Assembly (NCBI GenBank): GCA_942491115.1
Contig: CALNZV010000020.1
Location: 896,524-960,523, forward strand
From: an uncultured Desulfobacteraceae bacterium
Lineage (GTDB): Bacteria > Desulfobacterota > Desulfobacteria > Desulfobacterales > UBA5852
Reading direction: 5' to 3'
DNA length: 64,000 nt
The position numbers and the translations under genes were made by a program. Shown here in pieces: positions 15,544 through 46,990 of the stretch; position 1 is the stretch's first letter, and each line of letters starts with the position of its first letter. A model generated the notes under the pieces. That model made no database searches. It had not been told where the DNA came from and saw only the letters and a list, made by a program, of their open reading frames with translations.

Positions 15544-16959
15544 TTAGATGTCGAAGAGTCTCATTATCGACTCATGGTCGACCTTCCCGGCCCGGGACCG
15601 AGGAATCTCTGCCACCACCTTGATTTGGCGCGGCCGCTCGTGAGGCTCCAGGGAGTGGGTTGCCCATGCCTGAACCGATTCGATGCTGACGCTGCCCGCC
15701 ACGATGGCAAATAGGATGTTGTCCCGCCCGCTGTCGGCTGGCGCCGAAACGACCTGAACATCTCGGACACCCTCACACCCTCCCAACACTTCCGTGACCC
15801 TTCCCAAATCGACCCGTTTGCCCCCCACCTTGACAATGCCGTCATTGCGACCCGCCACCTCGAACCCATGGTCGCCCATGGCTTTAACCCGGTCGGGCAC
15901 CGAATAGAATCCATCGGCATCCCTTCCCAGTTCAGGGGATAGAAAGGCAGAACGGATGTCGAGCCGATCGGCGTCGATCCGCCAATCGACAACGCTGTAT
16001 GGCACCAGATAGGGCCGGCCCAGCCCCCGGCAGCGGGTGGCGATGCCCCCGGTTTCGGTTGAGCCGTAGATTTCGGTGACGGCGCACTGGCTTTTGGAGG
16101 TGAAGGCCTGGTCATCTTGAGGCCTGAGGGGGCCTGCCGAGGACAGGGCAAGCCGCAGACCAAGAGCGCCGAACCGCTGTCCTGCCAATACTCGGTAATG
16201 GGCGGGGATGCTGACAAGGACCGTGGACTGCTCCCCTTCCAGGGTGGATAGGATTTCCGCTGGATAGGCCGGTGTTCTCAAGGATACCGATGCGCCGGAA
16301 ACCAGGGGCAGAAGGATGGAATAAAGCAAGCCGTAAATATGATTGACCGGCACGGTGGCCAGGAATCGATCGTCGGCAGTCACATGGAACCGGTCAATAA
16401 GATGGCGGGTTTCACCGAGAAGGTTTCGTGGGGTTTTGGACCAGAGGCAGGGTTTCCCAGTGGACCCGCCGGTAAACAGATACACCCATGGGTGGTCTGG
16501 CTCCAGGGGGGACATCCGTGGCAGTGCCCGCTCCGGTAATGCCGACGGGCCCGCGGTAACGGCCTTTACGCCATGGGGAAGGGATCGGGGGCGGTCAACC
16601 ACGGCAAGCCTAAAATCCATGGCTTTTCGTGCGGCCTCCAGAGCCGACACGGTGTAAGCATGGGGCACCACGATGGGTATTTTTGACGACAGGGCCGCCA
16701 GAAGCGCCGCTGAAACCACTGCCCGGTTCTCGGCACACAGGCAGACAGGCCTTTGGGGGTCGCCCCCAGAGGCAACGGCGTCCCGGAGGGCCACGGCCAT
16801 GCGGTATACCTCTTCCCGGCGGGTGCCGTGGGGGGCGAAGGACGCGCTGCGGCTGGAACCGTCCAACAGCGAGGTCACCAGGGACCGGATAGCGCCCTCC
16901 CCGGTCCGGTTGCCCCGGACGGCCACATGAATAGGGTCGGATGACGGTATTTTTCTCAT
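15544..16959 (-). CDS. AMP-dependent synthetase/ligase (adenylate-forming; cluster loading enzyme candidate)
   Basis: Adenylation motifs FTGGSTGKPC (A3), EIYGSTETGG (A5) and VGGKRV (A8-A10 region). ATG at 16959 (MRKIPSS...). Confidence 0.85.
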   Translation of the reverse strand: MRKIPSSDPIHVAVRGNRTGEGAIRSLVTSLLDGSSRSASFAPHGTRREEVYRMAVALRDAVASGGDPQRPVCLCAENRAVVSAALLAALSSKIPIVVPHAYTVSALEAARKAMDFRLAVVDRPRSLPHGVKAVTAGPSALPERALPRMSPLEPDHPWVYLFTGGSTGKPCLWSKTPRNLLGETRHLIDRFHVTADDRFLATVPVNHIYGLLYSILLPLVSGASVSLRTPAYPAEILSTLEGEQSTVLVSIPAHYRVLAGQRFGALGLRLALSSAGPLRPQDDQAFTSKSQCAVTEIYGSTETGGIATRCRGLGRPYLVPYSVVDWRIDADRLDIRSAFLSPELGRDADGFYSVPDRVKAMGDHGFEVAGRNDGIVKVGGKRVDLGRVTEVLGGCEGVRDVQVVSAPADSGRDNILFAIVAGSVSIESVQAWATHSLEPHERPRQIKVVAEIPRSRAGKVDHESIMRLFDI

Positions 16960-17110
16960 GATACCCTTAAGGGACGCCGCTGCCGAGTGATGTTCCGCGG
17001 CCACCCCCTGTTGATGGAAACCTCCTTGACCATAACTGAATGAACACATAATATTTGGGTTGATGTTTTCCGCGCAATCCCGCGGTTAACGGATGGGGAG
17101 GAAACCCGAC

Positions 17111-18220
17111 ATGAGCGGCTGCTTCAATCAATTGATCGACTTTACAGTACCCCGCCAGGCCGTCGCCCAAGCGGTTGGTGACGGCCGTCTGCTGTCGATG
17201 GAAATCGAATTCAGTCTCAAATGCAATTTCAGCTGTCCCTACTGCTATGTCCCCCAACAGGAGGAGTTGAACGGCGAGTTGACGCCTGCGGAGCACCGGG
17301 ACGTCATCCTTCAAGCCAAAGCGATCGGTGCCGAACGGATCATCGTTCTTGGGGGCGAACCCAGCATCTATCCCAATATCGAGGACATGATCCGTTTTAT
17401 GGTCTCCCAGGGCCTGTCGGTGGAGCTGTTCACCAACGGAACCGGCATTAGCTCTACATTCGCGGAATTCCTTCACCGGCACCATGTCAGGGTTGTGCTC
17501 AAGATGAACACCTTCGACCCTGATCTTCAGGATCGGCTGTCGGGAAAAACCGGCGCCTATCACATCATACAAGCGGCTCTATCCCATCTGAAAAAGGCTG
17601 GATATCCCTCCAACGACGCTTTTTTGGCCGTTAGCTCCGTCATCTGCCGCCAGAACATCCCCGAATTGCCGCGGTTGTGGCGATGGCTTAGAGACCAGGG
17701 CATTGCGCCCTATTTCGAAATAATGACACCCCAGGAAAACGCTGCGAATAACCAGTGGCTCGCGGTCGAGTCCCAGGAGCTCTACCACCTGTTCGAGAAG
17801 CTGTCGGATATCGACCGAAGCGTCTACGGCAGATGGTGGGATCCCCAGCCCCCCCTGGTGGGAAACCGCTGCATGCGGCATTCCTTCTCCTGTCTGGTCA
17901 CCTCGAAAGGGGACGTGATGCCTTGCGTGGGGGTGACCCTCTCAGTGGGCAACGTCCGGGATACCCCTCTTGCCGACATCATCAAAAACAGCACCGTCCT
18001 CAACCAGTTGAAAAACCATCGGGAAACCATCAAAGGCGGGTGCGGAACCTGTGAAAGAGCCGACCGTTGCTATGGTTGCCGGGGAGCGGCGTATCAACTC
18101 ACCGGCGATTATCTGGCCTCCGACCCCCTGTGCTGGCGAAACAGCGGCTGTGGTGAAAACCCGTTGGGCATGGGCGACCCCAAATACCGGGAACGACAAC
18201 GACCGCCATCTAAATCTTGA
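17111..18220 (+). CDS. Radical SAM / SPASM-domain protein
   Basis: CNFSCPYC (CxxxCxxC) near the N-terminus, and a C-terminal Cys-rich SPASM-type region GGCGTCERADRCYGCRGAAY...DPLCW. ATG at 17111 has a GGAGG RBS. The ORF track opens at 17093. Confidence 0.85.
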   Translation: MSGCFNQLIDFTVPRQAVAQAVGDGRLLSMEIEFSLKCNFSCPYCYVPQQEELNGELTPAEHRDVILQAKAIGAERIIVLGGEPSIYPNIEDMIRFMVSQGLSVELFTNGTGISSTFAEFLHRHHVRVVLKMNTFDPDLQDRLSGKTGAYHIIQAALSHLKKAGYPSNDAFLAVSSVICRQNIPELPRLWRWLRDQGIAPYFEIMTPQENAANNQWLAVESQELYHLFEKLSDIDRSVYGRWWDPQPPLVGNRCMRHSFSCLVTSKGDVMPCVGVTLSVGNVRDTPLADIIKNSTVLNQLKNHRETIKGGCGTCERADRCYGCRGAAYQLTGDYLASDPLCWRNSGCGENPLGMGDPKYRERQRPPSKS

Positions 18221-19130
18221 TTCCCCCGTGGGGGCAGCCTTCCAACTTGAGGCATTGGCGGTCTCGACGACTCACCCCCTCCCCTCCCGTTTTCTCCAAA
18301 GGCAGATCGCCAGAGGGGGGCACCACCAAGGCCATGGTCCGACGGTCGATAAGCTCCGAGAGGGGAACAACGACCATCCCTTTCTTTCGGATCCCTGTCA
18401 ACAGGCCTTCGATCTCGGACAGCCAGCGGGGCAAGGATCGCCTGCCATTTGGCAACCCGTCGTGAAGAAGGACGATATCCCCAGGTCGAATCCTGCCAAG
18501 AATTTTTCGGCCCATCCCTTGGATGCGGCGGTTGCCGAAATCCATTCCACGCCGATTAAAGGTAACGACCGTTAGCCCCGCTCTCATGGCCGAATCCCCC
18601 ACCCGGGGGCCTAAAATCCCTGCAGGCGGCCTGAACACAAGGGGTCGAATCCCCAGTTCTTCGAGAACGGCCTGGGTGCATTCGATCTCACGATCAAGGG
18701 TGGCGGGGGTCCTGAAGGAAAACAACGGATCATGACTGTAAGAATGATTGCCGATCCCATGACCGGAACGAATGATGTCCCTGACCAGCCCTGGATGGGC
18801 CGCCGCCTTCTCTCCAGTGACGAAGAAGGTTGCCGGGATACCGTATGTGCCGAGCAGCTTCAAGAGTGGCGGGGTCGACAGGGGGTCGGGACCGTCGTCG
18901 ACGGTCAGGGCGACCGCCTTTTCCCCGGAAGTTCCCCGGCTGACGACGGGAAAGAAAAACCCTAGCCGGTGACAGAACGGGGCCATAAAGCAAATACCGA
19001 TAAAAAGACCGACAGGAATCGGCGCCAGCCGCCAGTTCCACAGCAACGTCAGGGCGGATGCGGAAAAACAGACCAGGGCGGTCCACCCTGCCATGGACAT
19101 GTGAAACCGTCTGGAGTGTTTGGGGCCCAT
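18210..19130 (-). CDS. Polysaccharide deacetylase (NodB homology domain), N-terminal TM anchors
   Basis: NodB motifs are LTVDDGPDP and HSYSHD. Two N-terminal hydrophobic helices. The 3' end overlaps the SPASM gene by 11 bp (convergent). Confidence 0.85.
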   Translation of the reverse strand: MGPKHSRRFHMSMAGWTALVCFSASALTLLWNWRLAPIPVGLFIGICFMAPFCHRLGFFFPVVSRGTSGEKAVALTVDDGPDPLSTPPLLKLLGTYGIPATFFVTGEKAAAHPGLVRDIIRSGHGIGNHSYSHDPLFSFRTPATLDREIECTQAVLEELGIRPLVFRPPAGILGPRVGDSAMRAGLTVVTFNRRGMDFGNRRIQGMGRKILGRIRPGDIVLLHDGLPNGRRSLPRWLSEIEGLLTGIRKKGMVVVPLSELIDRRTMALVVPPSGDLPLEKTGGEGVSRRDRQCLKLEGCPHGGIKI

Positions 19131-19162
19131 GTCTATTTATCCAAAGCGTCCGAGAACGTTGT

Positions 19163-20188
19163 TCAGGGGGCCGCTGCTTCAAACGCCGACCAGATCATCT
19201 CCGCCGCGTCGAAGCCCTTGAGGGAATGACCCTCTTCGAGCCCATCGGTAAAAAAGGGGCCTGGCCATACATGGCCCCACCCATCGATCGTATAGAGTAA
19301 AACCGCCGCCCCGCTCCGGCAGTCGCTCCATCGCTTCAGCTGAACGGCGCCGGAAAACAGTTGAGTGGTCAGGGGTGACGGTCTGCAGCCGTTCCGAATC
19401 CGCCAGGTGCGGACGGATTCTTCGACGCTCCAGTAAATCCGGGGTGTCCCCCTCCTCTGGCTGGGACTTCCGGAGTAGGGCACGTCCGTATCGTTCCTCC
19501 CGTGAATGATGACGAAGGGCACCGGGGCCACCGGTTCCGGAGGTGCGGGCGGGTGGTCCTCCCCGGCCACCGTACTGAAGACGGATGCGGCAAGGGCGGC
19601 GGCACCGGCTAACAACTCCCCTCGTTCTGCGGCGAAACGGTAAGTGAACATTCCACCGTTGGAGAACCCGACCATGTATATTTGTTGAGGGTTCACGGGG
19701 AATCGATCCACCACCTCCTGAATGGCGGCGGCCACGAAACCAACATCGTCGATATCGTCGTGGGCCGCCTTACCGCAACAGTGACCGGCATTCCAATGCT
19801 GAAGCAACCCGAGAATGCCGATCCCGTTGGGGTAGAGGACGATAAGTCCTTCTCTGTCGGCAAGGTCACTGAAACCCGTATACCGCTCCATCCCAGCGGC
19901 CGTATCAAACGCGCCATGAACAACGACGATCAGGGGGAGATCACCACGATCGGCGGCAGCGGGCGGCAGGTGCACATGGTAGGTGCGTCGAAATGTCCCT
20001 GTCACCCTGTCCGTCACGACCAGGTAGGTTCCGGAGGAATTCACGTCGCCCGAGGGCATCATCGGCACGCAACCGGCGGTCATGAGCACCGAAAGCCATA
20101 AAACGGCCGCCGGAGGCCATCGCCTCCCTTGGCTCAGGGCATGATTACCGTGCCGGCCGATGGCGTTCCTCACTGGTTCCTGAGGCAT
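19163..20188 (-). CDS. Alpha/beta hydrolase, PHB-depolymerase/LpqC-family esterase, lipoprotein
   Basis: Lipobox LMTAGC. Family blocks are VVVHG...LYPNG...WNAGHCCG, with nucleophile elbow GFSNGG. Confidence 0.8.
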   Translation of the reverse strand: MPQEPVRNAIGRHGNHALSQGRRWPPAAVLWLSVLMTAGCVPMMPSGDVNSSGTYLVVTDRVTGTFRRTYHVHLPPAAADRGDLPLIVVVHGAFDTAAGMERYTGFSDLADREGLIVLYPNGIGILGLLQHWNAGHCCGKAAHDDIDDVGFVAAAIQEVVDRFPVNPQQIYMVGFSNGGMFTYRFAAERGELLAGAAALAASVFSTVAGEDHPPAPPEPVAPVPFVIIHGRNDTDVPYSGSPSQRRGTPRIYWSVEESVRTWRIRNGCRPSPLTTQLFSGAVQLKRWSDCRSGAAVLLYTIDGWGHVWPGPFFTDGLEEGHSLKGFDAAEMIWSAFEAAAP

Positions 20189-23270: not shown

Positions 23271-23983
23271 AGCAGCAGTGCCCCCAAGGTCAGGGCCCCC
23301 AGCAGATGCAGCATGAGCACCACCCGCCGGTGACGGTGATAGCGTTCATTCACCTTTTGAATGATGAGAAGCCCCCCGAATAGTCGCCGCACCCGCTCAA
23401 GGGTGCGGTGGCGCCGGTTGTCCGAGGGGGAATTGCTCTGAAAGGCGATGGCCGGGTAAATCACGTAGGGGGTAACGTCGAGCCCGGCGAGCATGGCATC
23501 GAAGGGTAAACCGTCCCAGGGCTTGTGAACCAGGGTCTGGGCGAATTCCCGGCTCACCCCGTAGCCGTGAGCGAGGCACCGATACCGGGCGCTGCGAACC
23601 CCAGCGCAAGGGGTCTGGTGACTGCCTGAAACCAAGCACCCCAGAAACAGCAGATTCCACTGGGGTAGTGCAGATAGATACTGGGTGCAGGCGGCCAGCC
23701 GTCGTGGGCAGAACTGGTCAAAGACGATGTCGTCCTCGAAGACCACCATGCGTCTGGCACCGGATCCCAGCCCCTTCCGTAGACAGGTCATGTGGGAGTC
23801 GTAGATGCCTGCCTCGCTCCCCTCCGGATGTCTGTCGACAATTAAAAATTCCACCCTGTCTGATAGACCGACCCTGACAAACTGATGCCGGGCGCTTTGC
23901 CGTCGGTCTTCCCGTTCGGCCAAGGAAATGCAATAGAACCGATCGAAAAAGTCCCAGCCGCTGGCATCTGTTCGAGTGGCCAT
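23267..23983 (-). CDS. Glycosyltransferase family 25-like protein with a C-terminal TM helix
   Basis: The pattern FDRFYCISL.ERE.DRR...F...G....VEF...D......G...SH...L......VFEDDIVF resembles GT25 LPS glycosyltransferases. Its stop overlaps the MMPL start. Confidence 0.55.
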   Translation of the reverse strand: MATRTDASGWDFFDRFYCISLAEREDRRQSARHQFVRVGLSDRVEFLIVDRHPEGSEAGIYDSHMTCLRKGLGSGARRMVVFEDDIVFDQFCPRRLAACTQYLSALPQWNLLFLGCLVSGSHQTPCAGVRSARYRCLAHGYGVSREFAQTLVHKPWDGLPFDAMLAGLDVTPYVIYPAIAFQSNSPSDNRRHRTLERVRRLFGGLLIIQKVNERYHRHRRVVLMLHLLGALTLGALLL

Positions 23984-24534: not shown

Positions 24535-24575
24535 TGCCGACAAACCGGCGGAACTCGCCAATGGCAGGGGGCTCA

Positions 24576-40707: not shown

Positions 40708-40766
40708 GGTACCTCACTAACCCGACGCCGCCAAATAACTGCTTTCAATGGCGGAGGCGGTGGGGG

Positions 40767-41570
40767 TCAATGCCTCAGATGGGCTTCTAGGCGACGGCGA
40801 ACATCGGCCATGAGAGAACCGACCCCGACGGCTATGCCGTCGATCTCCGTGGGGATGTCCGCCACCAGTTCAACGGTGACGGTATTGGCCCGGCAAGTGT
40901 TGAACAAAAACTTGCCGGGCTGGAAAAGGGTTTCCGATCCTTGGACGGCCACCACTTTGATCGGCACCCTCATCCTTTTGGCAAGGGTGAATACGCCTCT
41001 TCGAAACCGCCCCATCCCACCGTCTTTGCTGCGGGTTCCTTCAGGGAAAACGATTAAATTGCCCCCCCCTGCCAGAAGGCTATCCAGGCGGCTTAGGCCA
41101 TCGATCATCACCCCCCCGTGGCGGCTGTTGGCCTGGGAAGGGATATAGCCGGACAGGGCAAGCATGGTGCCAAAGACCGGAATATCGAACAACCTCGCCT
41201 TGGCAATAGTGGTGTGCTTCTCAAATAAAGAAATCAATAAGATCGGATCAATATAAGAGACGTGGTTGCTCACGACGATGGAGGAGCGGATGTGACGGAC
41301 GTCATCGGCGATCTCCCAGTGCTGGAGGGGCGCCAGCCATTTCAGCAGCCGGAAGAAACCTTTGTAGAACCGGTGGTTCAGCCGCTGGAATGCCTCACGG
41401 CGATCGGCGGAGAAAAGGGCTGCCAAAAAATATCTCGGGGCAAAGAACCCCACGAACCCGATGGTAAAATACCCCCATAGGCAGAGGGTGATCGCAAGGT
41501 CTTTCAGCCGCTCGGCCCGGGTGGCCCCGCGCGGTGAAGCGCCCCTTCCGGTGGTCGACCGGCTGCTCAT
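40767..41570 (-). CDS. Lysophospholipid (1-acyl-sn-glycerol-3-phosphate, PlsC-type) acyltransferase
   Basis: Catalytic block NHVSYIDP (HxxxxD) and FPEGTRS. N-terminal TM segment. Confidence 0.85.
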   Translation of the reverse strand: MSSRSTTGRGASPRGATRAERLKDLAITLCLWGYFTIGFVGFFAPRYFLAALFSADRREAFQRLNHRFYKGFFRLLKWLAPLQHWEIADDVRHIRSSIVVSNHVSYIDPILLISLFEKHTTIAKARLFDIPVFGTMLALSGYIPSQANSRHGGVMIDGLSRLDSLLAGGGNLIVFPEGTRSKDGGMGRFRRGVFTLAKRMRVPIKVVAVQGSETLFQPGKFLFNTCRANTVTVELVADIPTEIDGIAVGVGSLMADVRRRLEAHLRH

Positions 41571-42808
41571 GGGTCTTCAGGCCTCGTCAGAAACAAGCAG
41601 GTGTTGACCCCGCCGAATGCAAAGTTCTGCACCGCGGCCGTCCCGATGGGGCTCGATTCCAGGCCGGCGGTGTGTCGGATACCGCTGCAGCGAGGGTCGA
41701 CCTCATCCAGATTCAGTGTCGGAGCGATGAATCCTTCCGCCATCATATGAAGCGTCATGATGGATTCGATGACGCCGCAGGCCCCCATGGTATGGCCCAT
41801 ATAGCTTTTGAGGCCGCTCACCGCCGGTGATTTTCCATAGATCCGTTCGATGGCCTGGGCCTCCATGACGTCCCCGGTCTTGGTGGCGGTGGCGTGAGCG
41901 CTGATGAAATCCACCTGCCCGGGGTCTAGCCCCGCGCTGTCAAGCCCGGTCTGGATGGCGCGCACGATGCCGTCGATATTGGGAAGGATCAGGTCTCCGC
42001 CGTTGTTGGTGCAGGAGAACCCGACAACCTCACCCAAAATACGTGCCCCCCGGCTTTTGGCGGATTCGTGGGATTCCAGAAGCACGGCCCCGGCGCCCTC
42101 CCCCACCACAAGCCCGTCCCGTCGGCGGTCAAAGGGGCGGGGGGTTTTTTCAGGCGTATCGTTGTAGTCCGTCGAACAGGCCAGAAGATTGTCGAATACC
42201 GCCACGGTGGTGGTATCATATTCATCCGCTCCTCCGCAGAGCATGGCATCCTGAAGGCCGTATTTGACCGCTTCGTATCCGAACCCAATGGACTGGCTGC
42301 TCGTGGTGCAGGCTGTCGAGGAGGAAATCACCCGACCCGTAATTCCAAACATCTTGGCGATGTTGACCGCCGTCGTGTGCACCATGGACTTAAGATAGTC
42401 TACGGCGCCGATATGGCTCAACTTGTTGCCGTCGTCACTGAAAAAGGTCCGGTAGATGTCCCGTTGCACCGTGGGGCTGCCGTGGGTGGAGCCAAAGGCC
42501 ACCCCGAGCCGGCCCGACCGGATGAAATCCTCCGACACGCCAGACTGCATCAAGGTTTCCTTTGCCACGTGGCAGGCATAAAAGGCCACCGGTCCCATGG
42601 TCTTCCGATCCCGCCGGAGAAAATCGAAATCCGGTGGCTCGGCCACGGTGCCGAAAACCCCGGAGTGGATGTGGCGGGTCAGCAGATCATCGTCCCGAAT
42701 ACGGCGAACCCCGGAGCGGCCCGAACGGAGGCTGTCCACGATGGTCTCCCGGGTGCAACCGATCGGGGTGATGGCCGAACAGCCGGTGATTACAACCCGA
42801 TTATCCAT
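41567..42808 (-). CDS. Beta-ketoacyl-ACP synthase (KS), catalytically complete
   Basis: Active-site Cys (STACTTSSQ), His (SAHATATKTGD) and His (MGHTMGACG). ATG at 42808 (MDNRVVITG...), with an alternative ATG at 42832. Confidence 0.9.
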   Translation of the reverse strand: MDNRVVITGCSAITPIGCTRETIVDSLRSGRSGVRRIRDDDLLTRHIHSGVFGTVAEPPDFDFLRRDRKTMGPVAFYACHVAKETLMQSGVSEDFIRSGRLGVAFGSTHGSPTVQRDIYRTFFSDDGNKLSHIGAVDYLKSMVHTTAVNIAKMFGITGRVISSSTACTTSSQSIGFGYEAVKYGLQDAMLCGGADEYDTTTVAVFDNLLACSTDYNDTPEKTPRPFDRRRDGLVVGEGAGAVLLESHESAKSRGARILGEVVGFSCTNNGGDLILPNIDGIVRAIQTGLDSAGLDPGQVDFISAHATATKTGDVMEAQAIERIYGKSPAVSGLKSYMGHTMGACGVIESIMTLHMMAEGFIAPTLNLDEVDPRCSGIRHTAGLESSPIGTAAVQNFAFGGVNTCLFLTRPEDP

Positions 42809-42856
42809 CAAACGGCCCTTTCGCCCATCCATTGGAAAACGCCGGCGATTCGGATC

Positions 42857-43120
42857 TCAGTCATCGGTTGCCCTTTTTGTAACGAGGTTGTCCACGTAAT
42901 CGACGATCTGTCGGATGGTGCGGATATCCATCGCGGCCTTCTTTTCGTCACGGGTCAGTTCAGAATCGAGGAGCACTTCGATTTCCCGCAGCAGTTCGAT
43001 GGCATCGATGCTGTCAAACTCATGGGCATCCCTGAGATCATCGTCAGCCCCCGGATCGACGATTTCGAATTGATCGGCGAAGATCGTAAGGATTGCAGAG
43101 TGAATTTTCGATTTCGTCAT
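42857..43120 (-). CDS. Acyl carrier protein
   Basis: 87 aa from ATG at 43120 (RBS GAGGG) with Ser motif EFDSIDAIELL. Confidence 0.85.
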   Translation of the reverse strand: MTKSKIHSAILTIFADQFEIVDPGADDDLRDAHEFDSIDAIELLREIEVLLDSELTRDEKKAAMDIRTIRQIVDYVDNLVTKRATDD

Positions 43121-43216
43121 TACCCTCGACCCTTTGGAACAGCGTTGAATGAAAAGCGGTATCATACAACAATTCCCGATTAACGGCAAAAGCCCCCCCT
43201 TCGAACCACCATACTT

Positions 43217-44101
43217 TCAGGGGTCAGGGGACAGAAAGGGCTGGAAATGAAACCAGTCGAAAGGGTAGACCCTCAGGGCGGCCTCCAGGTGGTCGGTGTA
43301 GATCTGGGCGGCCTCTTGAATCGCCTGACCTCTGCAGCGCCGGTCCGACACCGTCAAATGGATCGGTTCGTGGGCGACAAGCCGATAGTCCCGGTTCCCC
43401 TGCCGAAAGGCGAAAAAGACCACGATGGGCACACGGGACGCCGAGGCCAGCAGAAAGGGGGATTCCGGCAGTTCCACCCGCCGGCCGAACATGGTGGCGG
43501 CTACCGTTCGCTGGCCGCGTTTCCAGACCCGATCGCCTGCCATGGAGACCAGCCCCCCCGATTTGAGAAACCGGATCCCCTCCACGATGTCGAAGGGAGA
43601 CCCGCCACCCTCCTCTACCCCCACAACACGGACTCCCGCGCCCGCAAGCCCTTTCTTCTGGAGGGCTTCGATTTCATCGGTTTGACGAGTGCCCATGTAA
43701 AGCAGTAGACGGAGGCCCGGAAGCCGTCGCTGCAGCAAGTGGGCCGCCATCTCCCAGTTGCCCATGTGGGACATGAGCAATATCCCCCCATTGCCGGAAT
43801 CGATCACCGCCTCCAGGTAATGGGCGCCATCGATGGAATACCGGATGCCCTCCCCATGGTCCATTAGGGTCCGGTCCAGAAACACGTATGTAAAGTGACG
43901 AAATTGCCGCCAGGAGCAGCGAAGGTGATGCCATCGTCCGGTCCCTGGAAACAGGACGGCATAGAAGGCTGTACTGGATCGTCTCACTTTCGGCCGCATT
44001 ATAAAATAGCCGGCGGCAATACCGGCAGCCACCAGGGAAAACAAACCGCTTCCAAACCGATTGGACGCAAGAACAAGAAGCCGATAAAATCTTTCAATCA
44101 T
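43217..44101 (-). CDS. LpxL/HtrB-family (lipid A lauroyl-type) acyltransferase
   Basis: N-terminal TM segment and catalytic block LLMSHMGNWE (HxxxxE/D). ~294 aa, as expected for LpxL-like enzymes of APE clusters. Confidence 0.8.
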   Translation of the reverse strand: MIERFYRLLVLASNRFGSGLFSLVAAGIAAGYFIMRPKVRRSSTAFYAVLFPGTGRWHHLRCSWRQFRHFTYVFLDRTLMDHGEGIRYSIDGAHYLEAVIDSGNGGILLMSHMGNWEMAAHLLQRRLPGLRLLLYMGTRQTDEIEALQKKGLAGAGVRVVGVEEGGGSPFDIVEGIRFLKSGGLVSMAGDRVWKRGQRTVAATMFGRRVELPESPFLLASASRVPIVVFFAFRQGNRDYRLVAHEPIHLTVSDRRCRGQAIQEAAQIYTDHLEAALRVYPFDWFHFQPFLSPDP

Positions 44102-44847
44102 TTGCTCGACCGTTGGCCTTTATATCGATCTGTGATCCTCCACAGTGGTGGCGAGACCACCCGACGGGTAATCAGGCGGGCAAATGTTCCGGTATTCCTG
44201 AAAAAATCAGGAATCGGACGAAAATGTGAAATCCGGGACCCGGATCGACTGTAACGCACCGACACCGGCACCTCGATTATGGGAAGGCCGGCCCAGGCGG
44301 CCTTGGCCAAGACCTCCACTTCGAATTGATATCGCCGAGCCTCGACCTTCAGGGTCAAGACCTCGGGCAGTGGATACACCCGCATCCCCGTCTGGGTGTC
44401 GTGGAGATAGACCCCACCGGACACCCACACCCAGAAATTGGAAAACGCCCGGCCCGAGCGACTGGTCCACGGTGCGGTCTCCATTCCTTTACGACAACCA
44501 ATCACGATGGCCTTTCCGGAGGCGGGCACTGCGGACATAAGGGCTCCGATATCGGTCGGATCGTGCTGACCGTCAGCATCCAGGGTGACGACCCAATCCA
44601 CTCTGTTCCCCAGGTGGCGAAATCCCGACAACAAGGCGGCCCCTTTGCCCCGGTTGCAGGGATGACGCAGGATCTCTATGTTGGAAATCGATCGGAGCCG
44701 TTTGCACGTATCGTCTGTGGACCCGTCGTCGACGACCACAACGGGCGCCTGCCAGGCGAGGGTTTTTTGAGCGATGTCGGCGACGGTCCCCCCATGGTTG
44801 TAAGCCGGAATAACGACGGCGAAGGGAGGATGGGGGCTTGGGCTCAT
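44098..44847 (-). CDS. Glycosyltransferase family 2
   Basis: VVIPAYNHG...VVVDDGSTDDT and a DAD (DxD) block LDADGQHDP. The ATG overlaps the upstream stop (ATGA at 44844-44847). Confidence 0.88.
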   Translation of the reverse strand: MSPSPHPPFAVVIPAYNHGGTVADIAQKTLAWQAPVVVVDDGSTDDTCKRLRSISNIEILRHPCNRGKGAALLSGFRHLGNRVDWVVTLDADGQHDPTDIGALMSAVPASGKAIVIGCRKGMETAPWTSRSGRAFSNFWVWVSGGVYLHDTQTGMRVYPLPEVLTLKVEARRYQFEVEVLAKAAWAGLPIIEVPVSVRYSRSGSRISHFRPIPDFFRNTGTFARLITRRVVSPPLWRITDRYKGQRSSK

Positions 44848-46580
44848 GGGGGGTGATCTCCAGGAGATGGACGGGCCGGCAAGTAGGCAACGGCCCAGGT
44901 GCCGGGCCCCATGTGGGCCCCGGAAGTCGACGACATGGGTTCGATCCAACCCACCGTGGCGCCGAGACGGGCTTCGATTGCCGGCTTAGCCACCGTTTCG
45001 ACCCAGTCGCGGTTATCCGTGTAGGCCAGAAGAATATGGACCGGACCCGTTTCGGGAAAGGCCGCCGCCATGGTGTCGAGGGCGAAGCGGACCTGGGCGC
45101 TTCGGCTTTTAACCGCACCCGCCTTTTCGGCCCCCCTGGCTGTGGGTCGAATCACCGGTTTGTAGCGGATGAAGTCACCGACCATCCCCCGGACCTTGGA
45201 TATTCGGCCGCCGGCAGCCAGAAATTTTAGCTGATCCAGAAACACCAGTTCATCACACTGTTCCGCCCGGGCCGCTGCGAAGGCGGCCACCGCTTCCAGA
45301 CCATGCCCTTCGGCGGCAAACCGGGAGACGTCTATTGCCAAAAGCCCCAGTTTGCCGGAGGCGGCCGCCGTATCGATCACCGCCATGCGGGCCCTGCACC
45401 GGTGGTCGCGAACCCACTTTCTGGCAATCTGGCAATTGCCGGTGAAGGCGGATCCCACCGCCAAATAGACCACTCGTTCATAGCGATCCACGAGCCGCTC
45501 GTAATGCTGATGCCGTTCAAATGTCGACGCCTGGGCCGTGGACACCTTCTCCCCTTGGGCCATGGCGTCGTAGAGAGCGTCGGGTTGAACCAAGCTTTCA
45601 GGAATGACCCGGTCATCGAAGACGAGATAGCTGTCCAGCAGAGAAATGCCCATCCGCCGGGCCGTATCGGGGCTGAGAGATCCAGCGGCATCGGTGACCA
45701 CATGAACCCCCGGGGACGAAATGGGCGGCGGCAGTGGGCTCGGCGGCAGATGGATTTCCTCTGGCTGCCAACGGAGAAGGGTTCCCAGTTCAGCCAGATG
45801 CCGGCGGGTGTCATCGATACGATCGACGTGGAGATGGACTTTTAGCAGTCGGTCATCGGATTGGGTCACCACACTGTTTCCCAGTCCGGCAACGATTCCG
45901 GCGGCATTGTCGACACCGTCGTTCAGCCGAATGGCGGCGTCGACACAATAGGCGTTAGACCTCCCCCTGTCCCCGGATGCCACCACATCCAGCAATCCGT
46001 TGAAAAGGGCCATCGGTGTCGGAAAGGTGAGTTTCCCACCCACCAGGCAGATCAGAAAACCTTCGAAAAACAAATACATGCCTAGTGCACCGGCATCCAC
46101 GACCCCTGCCGTCGTCAGAGCCGACAGCTGGTCTCGGGTTCGGATGACCGTCTCTTTGAGATGGGCGATCACCTCGGTTGCAGCCTCCGGCCCCATGGGC
46201 TGGGAGCGCTTGTCCAAGGCATCCGACAGGGCGTCGAAAACGGATAGCATCGTCCCCTGCTGGGGAGCGGCCAGGGCATCCCAGGCTGCCCTGGCCCCTT
46301 CGGCAGCGGGTAGCCCCAGCCGGCCAGGATCATCGACAGCCGTAAAGCGGGAAAAAAAGGCCGCAGCGATATTACCGGCATTGCCGGTGGCCGAAATGAG
46401 AAGCCGCCGGTCCAGGTCCGGCTTGGCCCCGATCGTCGTGAGAGGGGCCAGACTCGCGCGAAGGTTGCGGCCCGTATCCGCGTCGGCCACCGGGAAGACA
46501 TTGATGGTGTCGAGGAGTTCGCTCCAGGCGGCCATCCGCTCATAGCCGGTTGAAAACGCCTCTGCCAGGGGCGCTTTCAT
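44844..46580 (-). CDS. DAK2 (DhaL-like) domain fused to a DegV fatty-acid-binding domain
   Basis: The N-terminal INVFPVADADTGRN is a Dak2-type nucleotide-binding motif. The C-terminal ~280 aa is DegV-like (VHVVTDAAGSL...STAQAS...GSAFTGN...VIDTAAASG...GAHMGPGTWAV). The ATG at 46580 shares 1 nt with the thioesterase stop. Confidence 0.8.
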   Translation of the reverse strand: MKAPLAEAFSTGYERMAAWSELLDTINVFPVADADTGRNLRASLAPLTTIGAKPDLDRRLLISATGNAGNIAAAFFSRFTAVDDPGRLGLPAAEGARAAWDALAAPQQGTMLSVFDALSDALDKRSQPMGPEAATEVIAHLKETVIRTRDQLSALTTAGVVDAGALGMYLFFEGFLICLVGGKLTFPTPMALFNGLLDVVASGDRGRSNAYCVDAAIRLNDGVDNAAGIVAGLGNSVVTQSDDRLLKVHLHVDRIDDTRRHLAELGTLLRWQPEEIHLPPSPLPPPISSPGVHVVTDAAGSLSPDTARRMGISLLDSYLVFDDRVIPESLVQPDALYDAMAQGEKVSTAQASTFERHQHYERLVDRYERVVYLAVGSAFTGNCQIARKWVRDHRCRARMAVIDTAAASGKLGLLAIDVSRFAAEGHGLEAVAAFAAARAEQCDELVFLDQLKFLAAGGRISKVRGMVGDFIRYKPVIRPTARGAEKAGAVKSRSAQVRFALDTMAAAFPETGPVHILLAYTDNRDWVETVAKPAIEARLGATVGWIEPMSSTSGAHMGPGTWAVAYLPARPSPGDHPP

Positions 46581-46990
46581 TAATCGCAACCCAAGGCCGT
46601 CTGAATCTCCGGAGGAATCTCGAAGTCGAGGACCATATCCGGAAGCTTGACAGCCACCTGCTCGCTGGTGGCCCGGGTGCAAATCTCGCCGTCGGGCATT
46701 CGGCGGATCTCAAAAGCCATGGCAATCTTGTAACGCGCTTCGGTAACGGTGGCCTTGCAGACAAAATCGTCTCGAGGCCCCAAAGCGGCGATGTGTTTGC
46801 AGGAGGTTCGGGTGATCGGAAATACGACCTGCTTTTCATGGAGATAGCGGAACAGGTCGATGCCAGCCGCCTCGAAGAGAGCAAAACGGGTTTCGTCAAA
46901 ATAGGAGGCGTAGTTGCCGTGCCAGACCACCCGCATGGGGTCGAGATGGTGGAAGGGAACTTTGAAGGATTTTTCGTAACTGAAGGCCAT
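46580..46990 (-). CDS. Hotdog-fold acyl thioesterase (4HBT/YbgC-like)
   Basis: 136 aa with HHLDPMRVVWHGNYASYFDETR, as in 4HBT-type thioesterases. It is the first gene of the right-hand minus-strand operon. Confidence 0.8.
   Translation of the reverse strand: MAFSYEKSFKVPFHHLDPMRVVWHGNYASYFDETRFALFEAAGIDLFRYLHEKQVVFPITRTSCKHIAALGPRDDFVCKATVTEARYKIAMAFEIRRMPDGEICTRATSEQVAVKLPDMVLDFEIPPEIQTALGCD

What the first reader, a model, noticed from the sequence alone, without database searches (positions are those of the whole stretch)
15544..46990. ~31-kb aryl-polyene-like type II PKS/FAS and lipid-export cluster carrying six radical SAM enzymes; product unknown
**Seen in the sequence.**
- About 30 tightly packed genes lie in five transcription units, and many junctions are 1-4 nt start/stop overlaps.
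- Chain-building genes: four KS with intact Cys-His-His triads plus one CLF-like domain, three ACPs, one FabG-type KR, two FabA/FabZ-type dehydratases and one PKS-type dehydratase, and two hotdog thioesterases.
- Loading, anchoring and export genes: an adenylating ligase, a LolA-like carrier, a lipoprotein, an MMPL exporter, LpxL-like and PlsC-like acyltransferases, and GT2 and GT25-like glycosyltransferases.
- A deacetylase and an esterase are also present.

**Established knowledge.** This is essentially the full parts list of aryl polyene (APE) clusters.

**What does not fit the APE paradigm.**
- Three B12-type radical SAM genes, a tandem pair of paralogous radical SAM genes and one SPASM radical SAM gene are interleaved with the KS/ACP/DH genes.
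- I see no enoyl reductase.
- I see no starter-unit gene such as an ammonia lyase or chorismate lyase.

**Inference.**
- An unsaturated ACP-bound chain is built. It is then methylated, cyclised or cross-linked by radical chemistry, attached to a (glyco)lipid anchor and exported to the outer membrane.
- FAS genes combined with B12-radical SAM genes is the layout proposed for ladderane lipid synthesis in anammox bacteria, and that proposal is unproven.
- To my knowledge, look-alike clusters in other anaerobes have no assigned product.
Basis: partly seen in the sequence, partly recalled or inferred. Interest (0 to 1): 0.85.

Follow-up and report, generated by a model that had tools for sequence, protein, structure and literature searches.

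The report
Aryl-polyene-type lipid cluster with radical SAMs
This is a real 31-gene cluster for an exported cell-envelope polyene glycolipid, carrying six radical SAM enzymes; it belongs to a widespread "ladderane-like" family in sulfate-reducing bacteria that is already recognised but whose product nobody has identified.

Summary
Window 15544-47077 carries 31 tightly packed genes. They include four ketosynthases (KS) with intact active sites plus a chain-length-factor (CLF) domain, three acyl carrier proteins (ACPs), a FabG-type reductase (KR), three dehydratases (DH), two thioesterases, a ligase, LolA, a lipoprotein, an MMPL exporter, acyl- and glycosyltransferases, and six radical SAM (rSAM) proteins, each with a CxxxCxxC motif.

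- **Aryl-polyene (APE) core.** Fourteen of the 18 E. coli CFT073 Ape proteins have homologues here.
- **"Ladderane" rSAM.** The B12-rSAM at 31332-32681 is a member of NCBIfam TIGR04072, "rSAM_ladder_B12" (399.5 bits, cut-off 360).
- **Conservation.** Gene order, rSAM genes included, is kept in 29 of 36 full-length relatives, among them cultured Desulfosarcina widdelii.
- **Relatives with aryl chemistry.** In Myxococcales genomes TIGR04072 sits inside a collinear ape operon. One of these has an aromatic ammonia-lyase. None has the ApeB methyltransferase.

Best reading: an APE-lipid-type outer-membrane glycolipid pathway with anaerobic radical and cobalamin tailoring, probably C-methylation. The product is unknown.

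The missing enoyl reductase and starter-unit gene are normal for APE clusters. Only the rSAM set is unusual. The family has been described since 2009 and is routinely flagged as "ladderane" by antiSMASH, so this is a new member of a known orphan kind.

The parts
15544..17049 (-). AMP-dependent ligase, ApeH-like (probable starter-acid loader)
   Evidence: PF00501 and PF13193. Best NCBIfam hit is the PYP-type 4-coumarate-CoA ligase, 113 bits, below cut-off. 28% identical to E. coli ApeH. 35-40% identical to the ligases in loci L078 and L074.
17093..18220 (+). Radical SAM/SPASM protein, paired with the ligase
   Evidence: PF04055 and PF13186, CxxxCxxC at residues 44-51. Below every NCBIfam cut-off; AhbD/NirJ-like at best. 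Homologues of about 61% identity are fused to an ApeP-like dehydratase domain. The divergent ligase/SPASM pair is also present in D. ovata.
18210..19130 (-). NodB-type polysaccharide deacetylase with an N-terminal membrane segment
   Evidence: PF01522, 99.6 bits. It follows the MMPL gene in L081, L084 and L085, and sits directly after the TIGR04072 gene in L072, L074 and L041.
19163..20188 (-). Lipoprotein esterase (PHB-depolymerase family)
   Evidence: NF050058, 152 bits against cut-off 150. Lipobox-like MTAGC. Orthologues in 7 of 36 loci.
20145..23270 (-). MMPL/RND exporter (ApeM-like) fused to a C-terminal class-I SAM methyltransferase
   Evidence: PF03176 plus Methyltransf_25/11/23 at residues 845-1007. 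At least 1145 homologues at E<=1e-10; the top 120 are all roughly 980-1070 aa and nearly all carry both the MMPL and the methyltransferase Pfam domains. Weak BLAST hit to ApeM.
23267..23983 (-). GT25-like protein (weak assignment)
   Evidence: PF01755, 24.9 bits against cut-off 24. 52% identical to the D. widdelii orthologue in the same position.
24073..24534 (+). Small conserved membrane protein, no family
   Evidence: No Pfam or NCBIfam hit. Orthologues of about 60% identity in 16 of 36 loci. The opposite-strand 'hyp124' gene call in D. widdelii aligns across a stop codon in the window.
24576..25517 (-). PKS-type dehydratase (PS-DH); likely start at 25439
   Evidence: PF14765, 21.8 bits, below cut-off. 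Orthologues hit PF14765, and in D. widdelii the orthologue is fused to a PPTase domain. Start-codon analysis.
25418..25897 (-). Hotdog thioesterase 1 (YbgC/FadM family, ApeK-like)
   Evidence: TIGR00051, 83.6 bits against cut-off 68.7. 29% identical to ApeK.
25901..27166 (-). FabF-like ketosynthase a (active-site residues intact)
   Evidence: PF00109 and PF02801. Active-site motifs. Start at 27166 inferred from the D. widdelii alignment.
27183..28433 (-). FabF-like ketosynthase b (active-site residues intact), 41% identical to ketosynthase a
28457..29455 (-). Radical SAM 1 of the tandem pair (332 aa), with auxiliary-cluster cysteines
   Evidence: P0001 is 100% identical. Median identity to orthologues is 81%. 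CxxxCxxC plus five further invariant Cys. AF2 model pLDDT 87.7; best PDB folds are anSME, SkfB, CteB and SuiB at TM<=0.55.
29467..30591 (-). Radical SAM 2 of the tandem pair; start uncertain between 30525 and 30591
   Evidence: 29% identical to radical SAM 1. Shares the same invariant Cys set. Present in 29 of 36 loci.
30593..30853 (-). ACP1
   Evidence: PF00550. DSM attachment site. 84% identical to the D. widdelii orthologue.
30921..31328 (-). ApeI-like FabZ-fold dehydratase
   Evidence: PF07977, and PF22818 at 26.6 bits against cut-off 28.5. Best PDB match is entry 6qsr. 33% identical to E. coli ApeI.
31332..32681 (-). Cobalamin-dependent radical SAM protein, member of TIGR04072 'rSAM_ladder_B12'
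   Evidence: 399.5 bits against cut-off 360; next best are BzaD at 149 bits and TsrM at 129 bits. Best PDB match is TsrM, 6wte. Orthologues in all 36 full loci.
32678..34843 (-). KS-CLF fusion (ApeO-like N-terminal half, ApeC-like C-terminal half)
   Evidence: PF00109 and PF02801 plus PF13723. The active-site residues are present only in the N-terminal half. 34% identical to ApeO and 35% to ApeC. Best PDB matches are 9s5h_B, Iga11 (6kxd), 7f28 and 6qsp, which I recall as ApeO.
34840..35121 (-). ACP2 (ApeE-like)
   Evidence: PF00550. 39% identical to ApeE.
35261..35716 (+). ApeP-like dehydratase
   Evidence: 48% identical to the D. widdelii gene carrying PF22817. 35% identical to E. coli ApeP, E = 3e-8. 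The window copy itself has no Pfam hit.
35816..36559 (+). FabG-type ketoreductase (ApeQ-like)
   Evidence: NF004200, 299 bits against cut-off 273; flexirubin FlxB 285 bits. 46% identical to ApeQ.
36592..37209 (+). LolA-like carrier (ApeL-like)
   Evidence: PF03548. Flexirubin LolA2, 85 bits, below cut-off.
37206..37886 (+). Lipoprotein, divergent DUF3261 (ApeN-like)
   Evidence: Signal peptide with lipobox ...WVAC. DUF3261 is the only family hit by more than one member: 9 of 14 orthologues, best E = 1e-4, window copy E = 0.014. hhalign against E. coli ApeN gives only 28% probability.
37934..39238 (+). Divergent B12-type radical SAM protein (434 aa), second most conserved protein of the cluster
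   Evidence: B12-binding 29 bits, below cut-off. CRYNCYPC at residues 173-180. 74% median identity in 30 of 36 loci. A 59% orthologue is present in L086.
39223..40707 (-). BchE/HpnR-like class-B radical SAM protein, an accessory gene
   Evidence: PF02310 and PF04055. Below all NCBIfam cut-offs. Orthologues of about 56-72% identity in 12 of 36 loci.
40767..41570 (-). PlsC-type acyltransferase (ApeD-like)
   Evidence: PF01553. 32% identical to ApeD.
41567..42832 (-). Ketosynthase c (ApeR-like)
   Evidence: 39% identical to ApeR, 270 bits. Active-site residues intact.
42857..43189 (-). ACP3 (weakly ApeF-like)
   Evidence: PF00550. DSI attachment site.
43217..44101 (-). LpxL-type acyltransferase, equivalent to the C-terminal half of ApeJ
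   Evidence: PF03279. Aligns to ApeJ residues 263-545.
44098..44847 (-). GT2 glycosyltransferase, equivalent to the N-terminal half of ApeJ; ORF runs to 44949, likely ATG at 44847
   Evidence: PF00535. 31% identical to ApeJ residues 9-231. Start-codon analysis.
44844..46682 (-). Dak2 + FakA-middle + DegV fusion, a candidate single-chain fatty-acid kinase; likely start near 46580
   Evidence: PF02734, PF21645 and PF02645. TIGR00762, 139 bits against cut-off 99.7. The same fusion sits beside TE2, PlsC and KS_c homologues in L070.
46580..47077 (-). Hotdog thioesterase 2 (ApeK-like)
   Evidence: PF03061 and PF13279. 29% identical to ApeK.

Best explanation
One biosynthetic gene cluster makes and exports an aryl-polyene-lipid-type (APEL-type) outer-membrane glycolipid. 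Its acyl chains are tailored by anaerobic radical and cobalamin chemistry.

**Shown by homology**
- The cluster encodes a highly reducing type II polyketide synthase (PKS) of the Ape kind:
  - an ApeH-like ligase;
  - an ApeR-like KS;
  - an ApeO/ApeC-like KS-CLF fusion;
  - ApeE/F-like ACPs;
  - an ApeQ-like KR;
  - an ApeI/ApeP-like dehydratase pair.
- There is no enoyl reductase.
- It also encodes the Ape lipid-assembly and export set:
  - an ApeD-like PlsC;
  - ApeJ split into a GT2 and an LpxL-like acyltransferase;
  - ApeK-like thioesterases;
  - an ApeL-like LolA;
  - an ApeM-like MMPL;
  - a weakly DUF3261-like lipoprotein.

**Inferred**
1. The ligase loads an acid, probably aromatic, onto ACP2.
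2. The KS enzymes extend it with malonyl units. KR and DH act in each round, giving a conjugated polyene.
3. The TIGR04072 cobalamin rSAM methylates an sp2 carbon of the head group or chain, taking the place of the missing ApeB methyltransferase.
4. A second, separable module makes or tailors a second chain by an unknown radical C-H functionalisation. This module comprises ACP1, two FabF-like KS, PS-DH, thioesterase 1 and the tandem rSAM pair with auxiliary clusters.
5. The deacetylase, glycosyltransferases and acyltransferases join the chains to an aminosugar-phosphoglycerol anchor. The Fak-like kinase may also take part.
6. MMPL-methyltransferase, LolA and the lipoprotein move the product to the outer membrane.
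For: **APE identity.**
- One-to-one BLASTP hits to 14 of the 18 E. coli CFT073 Ape proteins.
- The ApeI-like dehydratase has PDB entry 6qsr as its best match.
- The KS half of the fusion matches the polyene-type KS best: 9s5h_B, Iga11 (6kxd) and 6qsp, recalled as ApeO.
- FlxB and LolA2 flexirubin models are among the top NCBIfam hits.

**One functional unit.**
- Seven 4-nt overlaps link rSAM, KS, ACP and export genes.
- The order LpxL-ACP3-KS_c-PlsC-(BchE-like)-B12_x-lipoprotein-LolA-FabG-ApeP-ACP2-KSCLF-TIGR04072-ApeI-ACP1-rSAM2-rSAM1-KS_b-KS_a-TE1-PSDH-...-GT25-MMPL_MT-PDA recurs in Desulfobacterales genomes and in D. widdelii.
- Flanking genes differ between these genomes.

**TIGR04072 as an APE accessory.**
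- Members scoring above the cut-off (364-390 bits) sit inside collinear ape operons of Myxococcales MAGs. In L078 the order is ApeD-E-F-[rSAM]-G-H-I-J-K.
- L078 also carries an aromatic amino-acid lyase, PF00221 at 553 bits.

**Methylase inference.**
- The nearest characterised families are BzaD (149 bits) and TsrM (129 bits). Both methylate aromatic sp2 carbons. Other class-B families score 67 bits or less.
- TsrM's Gly-x-Thr-x-Arg69 cobalamin motif is kept as G-V-S-I-R (motif described in PMC9204698).
- No ApeB homologue occurs in the window or in any of the 86 related loci searched.
- L086 has no methyltransferase domain at all but does have TIGR04072.

**SPASM rSAM belongs to the pathway.** Homologues are fused to an ApeP-like domain and lie within an APE-like cluster.

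**APEL architecture used as the template.** bioRxiv 10.1101/2020.12.19.423268.
Against: - No product has been seen. Everything beyond domain homology is inference.
- There is no aromatic-starter gene in the window, and the ligase is only 28% identical to ApeH.
[quoted passage not shown] It is therefore neither a canonical rSAM nor TsrM-like at that position.
- The MMPL-fused methyltransferase could be the ApeB substitute instead.
- The tandem rSAM pair has no characterised close relative, so its chemistry is open.
- I know of no report of yellow APE-type pigments from Desulfobacterales. This rests on my own knowledge and was not searched exhaustively.
- The related loci are mostly from one order, so the synteny counts are not independent events.
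Confidence: 0.55

Rival explanations
1. Two pathways are nested rather than one. The Ape-like genes make an ordinary APE lipid. The inner module (ACP1, the tandem rSAM pair, two FabF-like KS, thioesterase 1, PS-DH) is a separate fatty-acid line that supplies modified bulk membrane acids, for example mid-chain methyl-branched or cyclic acids, to the general lipid pool.
For: - The module is separable. It is absent from L038, L070, L072 and L078, where TIGR04072 still sits among Ape-like genes. In L074 it is split and inverted.
- Both of its KS are FabF-like with full active-site residues, scoring 330-358 bits to the fabF model.
- It has its own ACP and thioesterase.
- PlsY follows it in L081 and L084.
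Against: - In 29 of 36 loci it lies inside the same strand block, between the ApeI-like gene and the GT25/MMPL genes, with short gaps.
- It has no KR or enoyl reductase of its own.
- The APE lipid of Xenorhabdus already needs a second, conjugated acyl chain. That chain gives the module a natural role within a single product.
Confidence: 0.15
2. The cluster makes a non-aromatic polyunsaturated lipid or hydrocarbon precursor. This is the 'anaerobic PUFA' idea proposed for the syntenic clusters of Desulfotalea psychrophila and Kuenenia.
For: - Rattray et al. 2009 (PMC2649909) reported synteny between such clusters, and C31:8 and C31:9 hydrocarbons in D. psychrophila.
- The window has no enoyl reductase and no aromatic-starter gene.
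Against: - The KS-CLF, ApeI/ApeP and ApeH-like set is the conjugated-polyene type.
- A relative has an aromatic ammonia-lyase inside the operon.
- The window lacks the phytoene-desaturase-like gene on which that proposal relied.
- From my own knowledge, untested here, C31:9 hydrocarbons are made by Pfa and Ole enzymes.
Confidence: 0.12
3. The cluster makes ladderane or other cyclobutane lipids, with the TIGR04072 rSAM closing the rings.
For: - The protein is a TIGR04072 member.
- The ACP + KS/CLF + DH + B12-rSAM core parallels anammox Cluster I.
- The tandem rSAM pair, deacetylase, ligase, glycosyltransferase and extra FabF genes parallel kuste3335-3352.
Against: - Ladderanes are known only from anammox bacteria and were not found in D. 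psychrophila (PMC2649909, PMC9902471).
- The window has no phytoene-desaturase homologue.
- The dehydratase's best solved-structure match is entry 6qsr, recalled as ApeI:ApeP, ahead of the FabZ entries. Comparison with amxFabZ itself was not made.
- TIGR04072 also occurs in ordinary ape operons, one of which has an ammonia-lyase.
- The link between the anammox cluster and ladderanes is itself unproven.
Confidence: 0.04

Closest known systems
Aryl polyene (ape) cluster of E. coli CFT073 and Xenorhabdus doucetiae, and its product, the APE lipids (APELs)
   Same: - Homologues of ApeC, D, E, F, H, I, J, K, L, M, O, P, Q and R are present.
- Neither cluster has an enoyl reductase or a starter-unit gene.
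- Both have LolA, an MMPL transporter and a lipoprotein for export.
- Both have acyl- and glycosyltransferases suited to an aminosugar-phosphoglycerol anchor.
   Different: - The window has no BLAST homologue of ApeA, ApeB or ApeG, and ApeN is matched only weakly.
- KS and CLF are fused, and ApeJ is split into two genes.
- MMPL is fused to a methyltransferase.
- The window adds:
  - six rSAM genes;
  - a FabF-like KS pair;
  - PS-DH;
  - a deacetylase;
  - an esterase;
  - a GT25-like gene;
  - a Fak-like fusion.
'Ladderane-type' clusters: the anammox loci kuste3603-3608, kuste2802-2805 and kuste3335-3352; their look-alikes in D. psychrophila, Geobacter and Pelobacter; and antiSMASH 'ladderane' hits in Desulfobacterota
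   Same: - A TIGR04072 B12-rSAM lies beside an ACP, a KS/CLF and a dehydratase.
- Also shared are a tandem rSAM pair, an aryl-CoA-ligase-like gene, a glycosyltransferase, a polysaccharide deacetylase, extra FabF paralogues and SAM methyltransferase function.
- The product is unknown outside anammox bacteria.
   Different: - The window has no phytoene-desaturase-like gene.
- The dehydratase's best solved-structure match is entry 6qsr, recalled as ApeI:ApeP.
- A complete Ape-type export and anchoring set is present.
- The window's TIGR04072 score (399 bits) is far below that of the desaturase-linked subtype (614 bits in L086).
Cobalamin-dependent rSAM methylases BzaD (B12 lower-ligand pathway) and TsrM (tryptophan C2 methylase)
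   Same: - These are the best characterised relatives of the TIGR04072 protein.
- The alignment to TsrM spans residues 3-372.
- The Arg of TsrM's Gly-x-Thr-x-Arg motif is kept.
   Different: - Both score far below their own family cut-offs here (149 against 450, and 129 against 500).
[quoted passage not shown]
- The substrate here would be carrier-protein-bound.
Jawsamycin Jaw5/C10P (an rSAM acting iteratively with a PKS on enoyl intermediates)
   Same: The concept is shared: an rSAM enzyme tailors a growing unsaturated thioester-bound chain (PMC13459092).
   Different: Jaw5 is, as I recall, HemN-like (untested here), and no homology to it was found. The rSAM proteins here are class-B or SPASM/twitch-like.

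Membership tests
NCBIfam TIGR04072 (rSAM_ladder_B12, lipid biosynthesis B12-binding/radical SAM protein) | Full-length HMM score at or above the curated cut-off of 360 bits | tested here: met
   399.5 bits, E = 1.5e-119, model positions 1-441 of 443. Orthologues score 364-406 bits, and the L086 subtype scores 614 bits.
NCBIfam TIGR04072 | B12-binding domain plus a radical SAM domain with CxxxCxxC | tested here: met
   PF02310 at 53.7 bits and PF04055 at 67.1 bits. CCFRCIYC at residues 194-201.
Aryl polyene (ape) gene cluster | Core genes as listed by Grammbitter et al. 2020: KS (apeO/R), CLF (apeC), ACPs (apeE/F), DH (apeI/P), KR (apeQ), transporter (apeM) | tested here: met
   BLASTP against E. 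coli CFT073: ApeR 39%, ApeO 34%, ApeC 35%, ApeE 39%, ApeF weak, ApeI 33%, ApeP 35%, ApeQ 46%, ApeM weak.
Aryl polyene (ape) gene cluster | An aromatic starter (4-hydroxyphenyl type) and a conjugated polyene chromophore | not testable with these tools
   Indirect evidence only. The ligase's best NCBIfam hit is a 4-coumarate ligase, below cut-off. The related locus L078 encodes an aromatic amino-acid lyase.
Aryl polyene (ape) gene cluster | An ApeB class-I methyltransferase for the head group | tested here: not met
   No tblastn hit to ApeB in the window or in 86 related loci at E<=1e-5. A different methyltransferase domain is fused to the MMPL protein.
Anammox ladderane 'Cluster I' (kuste3603-3608) | ACP + KS + inactive KS (CLF-like) + cobalamin rSAM | tested here: met
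   ACP2, the KS-CLF fusion and the TIGR04072 gene are adjacent with 4-nt overlaps.
Anammox ladderane 'Cluster I' (kuste3603-3608) | Phytoene-dehydrogenase homologue | tested here: not met
   No Amino_oxidase or desaturase domain in any scanned ORF of the window. One is present in L086.
Anammox ladderane 'Cluster I' (kuste3603-3608) | amxFabZ-type dehydratase and amxACP | tested here: inconclusive
   The dehydratase's best solved relative is entry 6qsr, ahead of the FabZ entries. Whether amxFabZ or amxACP are among the lower hits could not be read from the molecule names.
Anammox ladderane 'Cluster I' (kuste3603-3608) | The host makes ladderane lipids | not testable with these tools
   The literature restricts ladderanes to anammox Planctomycetota. 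The host here is a Desulfobacterales relative.
SPASM/twitch radical SAM enzymes (tandem pair) | A C-terminal cysteine-rich domain for auxiliary Fe-S cluster(s) | tested here: inconclusive
   Five extra invariant Cys are present. The best folds are anSME, SkfB, CteB and SuiB, but only at TM<=0.55. There is no PF13186 hit.
Fatty acid kinase (FakA/FakB) | A Dak2 kinase domain, a FakA middle domain and a DegV fatty-acid-binding protein | tested here: met
   PF02734, PF21645 and PF02645 lie in one polypeptide. DegV TIGR00762 scores above its cut-off. The FakA and FakB equivalog models score far below theirs. The activity is inferred.

The most novel reading that the evidence does not exclude
The so-called ladderane rSAM family (TIGR04072) would be a cobalamin-dependent sp2-carbon methyltransferase. 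In anaerobes' aryl-polyene clusters it would stand in for the ApeB methyltransferase.

The very highly conserved tandem rSAM pair, working with its own FabF-like KS pair, would install C-C cross-links or rings in a second chain.

The product would then be a new class of radical-tailored polyene glycolipids. The anammox ladderane genes would be a derived branch of the aryl-polyene machinery rather than of fatty-acid synthesis.
Probability: 0.2. Interest if true: 0.8.

Novelty: new member of a known kind. Interest (0 to 1): 0.5.

Why it matters
The product of this cluster family is unknown, although the family is common in sulfate-reducing Desulfobacterota of anoxic sediments. It may be a source of unassigned sedimentary lipids.

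The family shares its signature enzyme with the unproven ladderane pathway of anammox bacteria. Anammox bacteria cannot be manipulated genetically. Cultured carriers such as Desulfosarcina widdelii (L081) would allow the function of TIGR04072 and of the tandem rSAM pair to be tested directly. The MAG in L024 is assigned to the cultured species Desulfosudis oleivorans, which may offer a second carrier.

TIGR04072 sits in ordinary ape operons, one of them with an ammonia-lyase. The ladderane papers I read do not mention this link; the 2026 KS/CLF preprint never uses the term 'aryl polyene'. If it holds, it reframes what that enzyme is likely to do.

Tried and rejected
- **Exact look-ups of window proteins gave no contig.** The host record is an unannotated 1.34-Mb NCBI contig, so the organism is known only as a Desulfobacterales/Desulfosarcina relative.
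- **Lipoprotein as ApeN.** hhalign gave 28% probability. Pfam DUF3261 is weak but was hit by 9 of 14 orthologues. I kept this as a tentative assignment.
- **Minus-strand gene at 24082-24378.** This was suggested by the D. widdelii 'hyp124' call. I rejected it because the alignment crosses a stop codon and is low-complexity.
- **573-aa plus-strand ORF at 39427-41148.** Rejected as antisense to the BchE-like gene; its GC3 is 0.59 against 0.79.
- **Function of the tandem rSAM pair.**
  - A profile search of PDB sequences gave only generic SPASM/twitch hits: SkfB, SuiB, GDGT-MAS and PqqE.
  - Foldseek gave TM<=0.55.
  - No function can be transferred from these matches.
- **Structure tools.**
- **TsrM-like non-radical mechanism for TIGR04072.** Only partly supported: the Arg is kept but the GGE Glu is not.
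- **Ladderane product.** Rejected as unlikely; see the rival explanations.
- **PDB entry 9s5h.** This is the best match of the KS half. It holds two different KS chains and may be the anammox heterodimer, but the preprint text gives no PDB codes, so I make no such claim.

Full report
**1. What is there**

The window has about 60% G+C, so I called genes by length and third-position GC. I then scanned them against Pfam and NCBIfam. Thirty-one genes lie between 15544 and 47077.
- The left flank is a cation-efflux gene at 14118-15092.
- The right flank is a lutABC-like operon at 47222-50130.
- The other ORFs I scanned across the window encode unrelated functions. None is an enoyl reductase, a phosphopantetheinyl transferase, a phytoene-desaturase homologue or an aromatic lyase.

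- Four ketosynthases (KS) keep the Cys, His, Lys and His active-site motifs. The C-terminal half of the 721-aa protein has none, so it is a chain-length-factor (CLF) domain fused to a KS.
- All three acyl carrier proteins (ACPs) have a DS[IM] attachment site.
- All six radical SAM (rSAM) proteins have a CxxxCxxC motif. The tandem pair are paralogues at 29% identity.
- Start/stop overlaps of 4 nt join GT25/MMPL, KS-CLF/TIGR04072, ACP2/KS-CLF, LolA/lipoprotein, KS_c/PlsC, GT2/LpxL and, after start refinement, Fak-fusion/GT2.

- A class-I methyltransferase domain is fused to the C-terminus of the MMPL exporter.
- The gene at 44844-46682 is a Dak2 + FakA-middle + DegV fusion.
- The gene at 24073-24534(+) is a small membrane protein.

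The strand pattern gives seven blocks rather than five transcription units.

**2. It is an Ape-type system**

I fetched the characterised ape operon of E. coli CFT073 and compared its 18 proteins with the window's. Fourteen have homologues.

| E. coli protein | Window counterpart | Identity |
|---|---|---|
| ApeR | KS_c | 39% |
| ApeQ | FabG | 46% |
| ApeO and ApeC | the two halves of the KS-CLF fusion | 34% and 35% |
| ApeI | 30921-31328 | 33% |
| ApeP | 35261-35716 | 35% |
| ApeE | ACP2 | 39% |
| ApeF | ACP3 | weak |
| ApeH | the ligase | 28% |
| ApeD | PlsC-type acyltransferase | 32% |
| ApeJ | split into GT2 and the LpxL-like acyltransferase | 31% and 24% |
| ApeK | both thioesterases | 29% |
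| ApeL | LolA | 35% over 48 residues |
| ApeM | MMPL | weak |

- The dehydratase's best solved relative is PDB entry 6qsr, which I recall to be the ApeI:ApeP structure.
- The KS half matches 9s5h_B, the ishigamide KS Iga11 and 6qsp (recalled as ApeO) best.
- The lipoprotein after LolA is a weak DUF3261 match, like ApeN.

The E. coli operon itself has no enoyl reductase and no ammonia or chorismate lyase. A polyene needs no enoyl reductase.

The structure of the Xenorhabdus product explains why such clusters carry a PlsC-type enzyme, a glycosyl/acyltransferase and two ACPs. In that lipid an aryl polyene is esterified to GalNAc-phosphate-glycerol, which also bears a second, conjugated C26:5 acyl chain and a saturated chain.

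**3. The 'ladderane' connection is real but generic**

- The protein at 31332-32681 scores 399.5 bits on NCBIfam TIGR04072, 'rSAM_ladder_B12' (cut-off 360).
- Its neighbours are an ACP, a KS/CLF and a dehydratase. This mirrors anammox Cluster I, whose two FabF homologues were recently shown to form a KS/CLF-like heterodimer.
- Several window genes mirror the gene list of kuste3335-3352:
  - the tandem rSAM pair;
  - the ligase;
  - the glycosyltransferase;
  - the deacetylase;
  - the extra FabF genes;
  - the methyltransferase function.
- Rattray et al. described such look-alike clusters in Desulfotalea, Geobacter and Pelobacter in 2009 and found no ladderanes there.
- antiSMASH 'ladderane' hits in Desulfobacterota and other phyla are reported as being of unknown function.
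- A 2026 review still lists the ring-forming enzyme as unknown.
- The link between the anammox cluster and ladderanes is itself unproven.
- Heterologous expression of 34 anammox genes gave no new lipid, and the tandem rSAM proteins were not detected.

**4. Conservation**

A genome scan with the TIGR04072 protein returned 80 loci. They are mostly Desulfobacterales MAGs at 48-62% identity. Thirty-six of them have the full ±10 kb of flank.

| Gene | Loci with an orthologue (of 36) | Median identity |
|---|---|---|
| tandem rSAM 1 | 29 | 81% |
| tandem rSAM 2 | 29 | 66% |
| ACP1 | 28 | - |
| KS_a and KS_b | 36 | - |
| KS-CLF | 29 | - |
| ACP2 | 35 | - |
| FabG | 33 | - |
| LolA | 27 | - |
| 434-aa B12-type protein | 30 | 74% |

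- Gene order is the same as in the window.
- The cultured Desulfosarcina widdelii has the same arrangement, including the MMPL-methyltransferase fusion and the deacetylase.
- Two extended contexts show the synteny ending at the deacetylase, with unrelated flanks beyond it.
- The BchE-like rSAM has orthologues of about 56-72% identity in 12 of the 36 loci.
- The source genome is an unannotated NCBI contig of 1.34 Mb. Its closest named relatives are Desulfobacterales and Desulfosarcina.

**5. Two nested modules**

- The block ACP1, rSAM2, rSAM1, KS_b, KS_a, TE1, PS-DH is missing from L038, L070, L072 and L078. It is split and inverted in L074. In all five, TIGR04072 stays with Ape-like genes.
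- In the Myxococcales loci L078 and L072 the TIGR04072 gene (364 and 390 bits) lies within an otherwise collinear ape operon.
  - In L078 the order is ApeD-E-F-[rSAM]-G-H-I-J-K, with ApeR-Q-P-C-O divergent.
  - L078 also has an aromatic amino-acid lyase between ApeJ and ApeK (PF00221, 553 bits).
- TIGR04072 is therefore an accessory of genuine aryl-polyene clusters, not a marker of ladderanes.
- No ApeB homologue was found in the window or in any related locus.

**6. The sixth rSAM**

- The SPASM protein looked peripheral. It is absent from the ends of the D. widdelii, L084 and L085 clusters.
- Its homologues include proteins of about 503 aa fused to an ApeP-like dehydratase domain.
- One such fusion lies in an APE-like cluster next to an AMP-ligase. 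That cluster also has a phytoene-desaturase-like gene, LolA, MMPL, DUF3261, an ApeI-like gene, an orthologue of the 434-aa B12-type protein (59%) and a 614-bit TIGR04072 member.
- In D. ovata the SPASM gene is again divergently paired with an AMP-binding gene.
- All six rSAM types therefore recur with APE-type machinery somewhere, but with different degrees of linkage.

**7. What the rSAM enzymes may do**

*TIGR04072.*
- Its nearest characterised families are BzaD (149 bits) and TsrM (129 bits). Other class-B families score 67 bits or less.
- Its best solved relative is TsrM.
- TsrM methylates an aromatic sp2 carbon (PMC9204698). BzaD does too, from my own knowledge of Hazra et al. 2015.
- The alignment keeps TsrM's Gly-x-Thr-x-Arg69 motif as G-V-S-I-R. 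TsrM's cluster-ligating Glu (TDSEFN) is replaced by Ala (TDSAFN) (motifs).
- Together with the absence of ApeB, this makes C-methylation of the head group or polyene the most economical guess. It is an inference.

*The tandem pair.*
- It forms a small, very conserved family. In 1.84 billion representatives there are 512 at E<=1e-3 and 39 at E<=1e-30. The top-scoring full-length representative is 79% identical, and the other full-length hits listed are below 40%.
- Both proteins share five invariant extra cysteines.
- A confident model (pLDDT 87.7) resembles the SPASM/twitch enzymes anSME, SkfB, CteB and SuiB only loosely, at TM<=0.55.
- Their reaction cannot be named.

*Other inferences.*
- The Fak-like fusion recurs beside the cluster in L070. 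Relatives carry PlsY. This suggests that a thioesterase-released acid is re-activated as an acyl phosphate for glycerol-phosphate acylation.
- The deacetylase next to TIGR04072 in L072, L074 and L041 suggests de-N-acetylation of the sugar before acylation.
- Both points are inference.

**8. Verdict**

This is a further member of an orphan cluster family known since 2009.

Its value lies in the open chemistry, and in the fact that cultured Desulfobacterales carry it.

The one point I did not find in the papers searched is that TIGR04072 sits in ordinary ape operons that lack ApeB. The ladderane KS/CLF preprint does not mention aryl polyenes. A search combining aryl polyene, radical SAM and cobalamin found nothing relevant.

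Noticed in passing
window 20145-23270 (-): The MMPL exporter carries a C-terminal class-I SAM methyltransferase. The fusion is widespread: at least 1145 homologues, and the top 120 are roughly 980-1070 aa, nearly all with both domains. Some copies also hit the O-methyltransferase family PF00891. A transporter-methyltransferase fusion suggests methylation coupled to export.
   Followed up: partly
window 44844-46682 (-); also L070 14321-16021: A FakA N-terminal and middle domain is fused to a full DegV (FakB-type) domain, which would be a single-chain fatty-acid kinase. It recurs next to TE2, PlsC and KS_c homologues in a distant genome. Relatives carry PlsY in the cluster instead.
   Followed up: partly
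L088 6601-9576 (Desulfosarcina ovata): A 991-aa protein joins an AMP-binding domain (37% identical to the window's ligase) to Fer2 and RACo (corrinoid reductive activase) domains. It is divergent from the SPASM rSAM orthologue. This may be a link to cobalamin re-activation.
   Followed up: no
L081 16558-16932 against window 24073-24534: The D. widdelii gene call 'hyp124' appears to be on the wrong strand. Its window counterpart contains a stop codon, whereas the opposite-strand 153-aa membrane protein is conserved at about 60% identity.
   Followed up: yes
L081 14417-15922: In D. widdelii the PS-DH gene is fused to a 4'-phosphopantetheinyl transferase domain (PF01648). The window copy lacks that domain, and no PPTase was found among the window ORFs scanned.
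   Followed up: partly
L005 (MAG labelled Gammaproteobacteria) and L041 (MAG labelled Spirochaetes): Both carry the Desulfobacterales-type cluster at 55-57% identity of the anchor protein. This reflects either horizontal transfer or a binning error.
   Followed up: no
window 47222-50130 (-): A lutABC-like lactate-utilisation operon (LUD domain, 4Fe-4S LutB, CCG-domain LutA) lies immediately beside the cluster.
   Followed up: no
window 8341-9717 (-) and 53876-54298 (-): The first is a metallo-beta-lactamase-fold protein with two rhodanese domains. The second is a FlK-type (fluoroacetyl-CoA-specific) thioesterase homologue, PF22636 at 99.8 bits. Both lie outside the cluster.
   Followed up: no
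window 12486-13904 (-), 55710-57098 (-), 59140-60354 (-), 52188-53288 (-): Four long ORFs of 366-472 aa have no Pfam hit at the thresholds used. For the first two, coding-like GC3 supports them as real genes.
   Followed up: no
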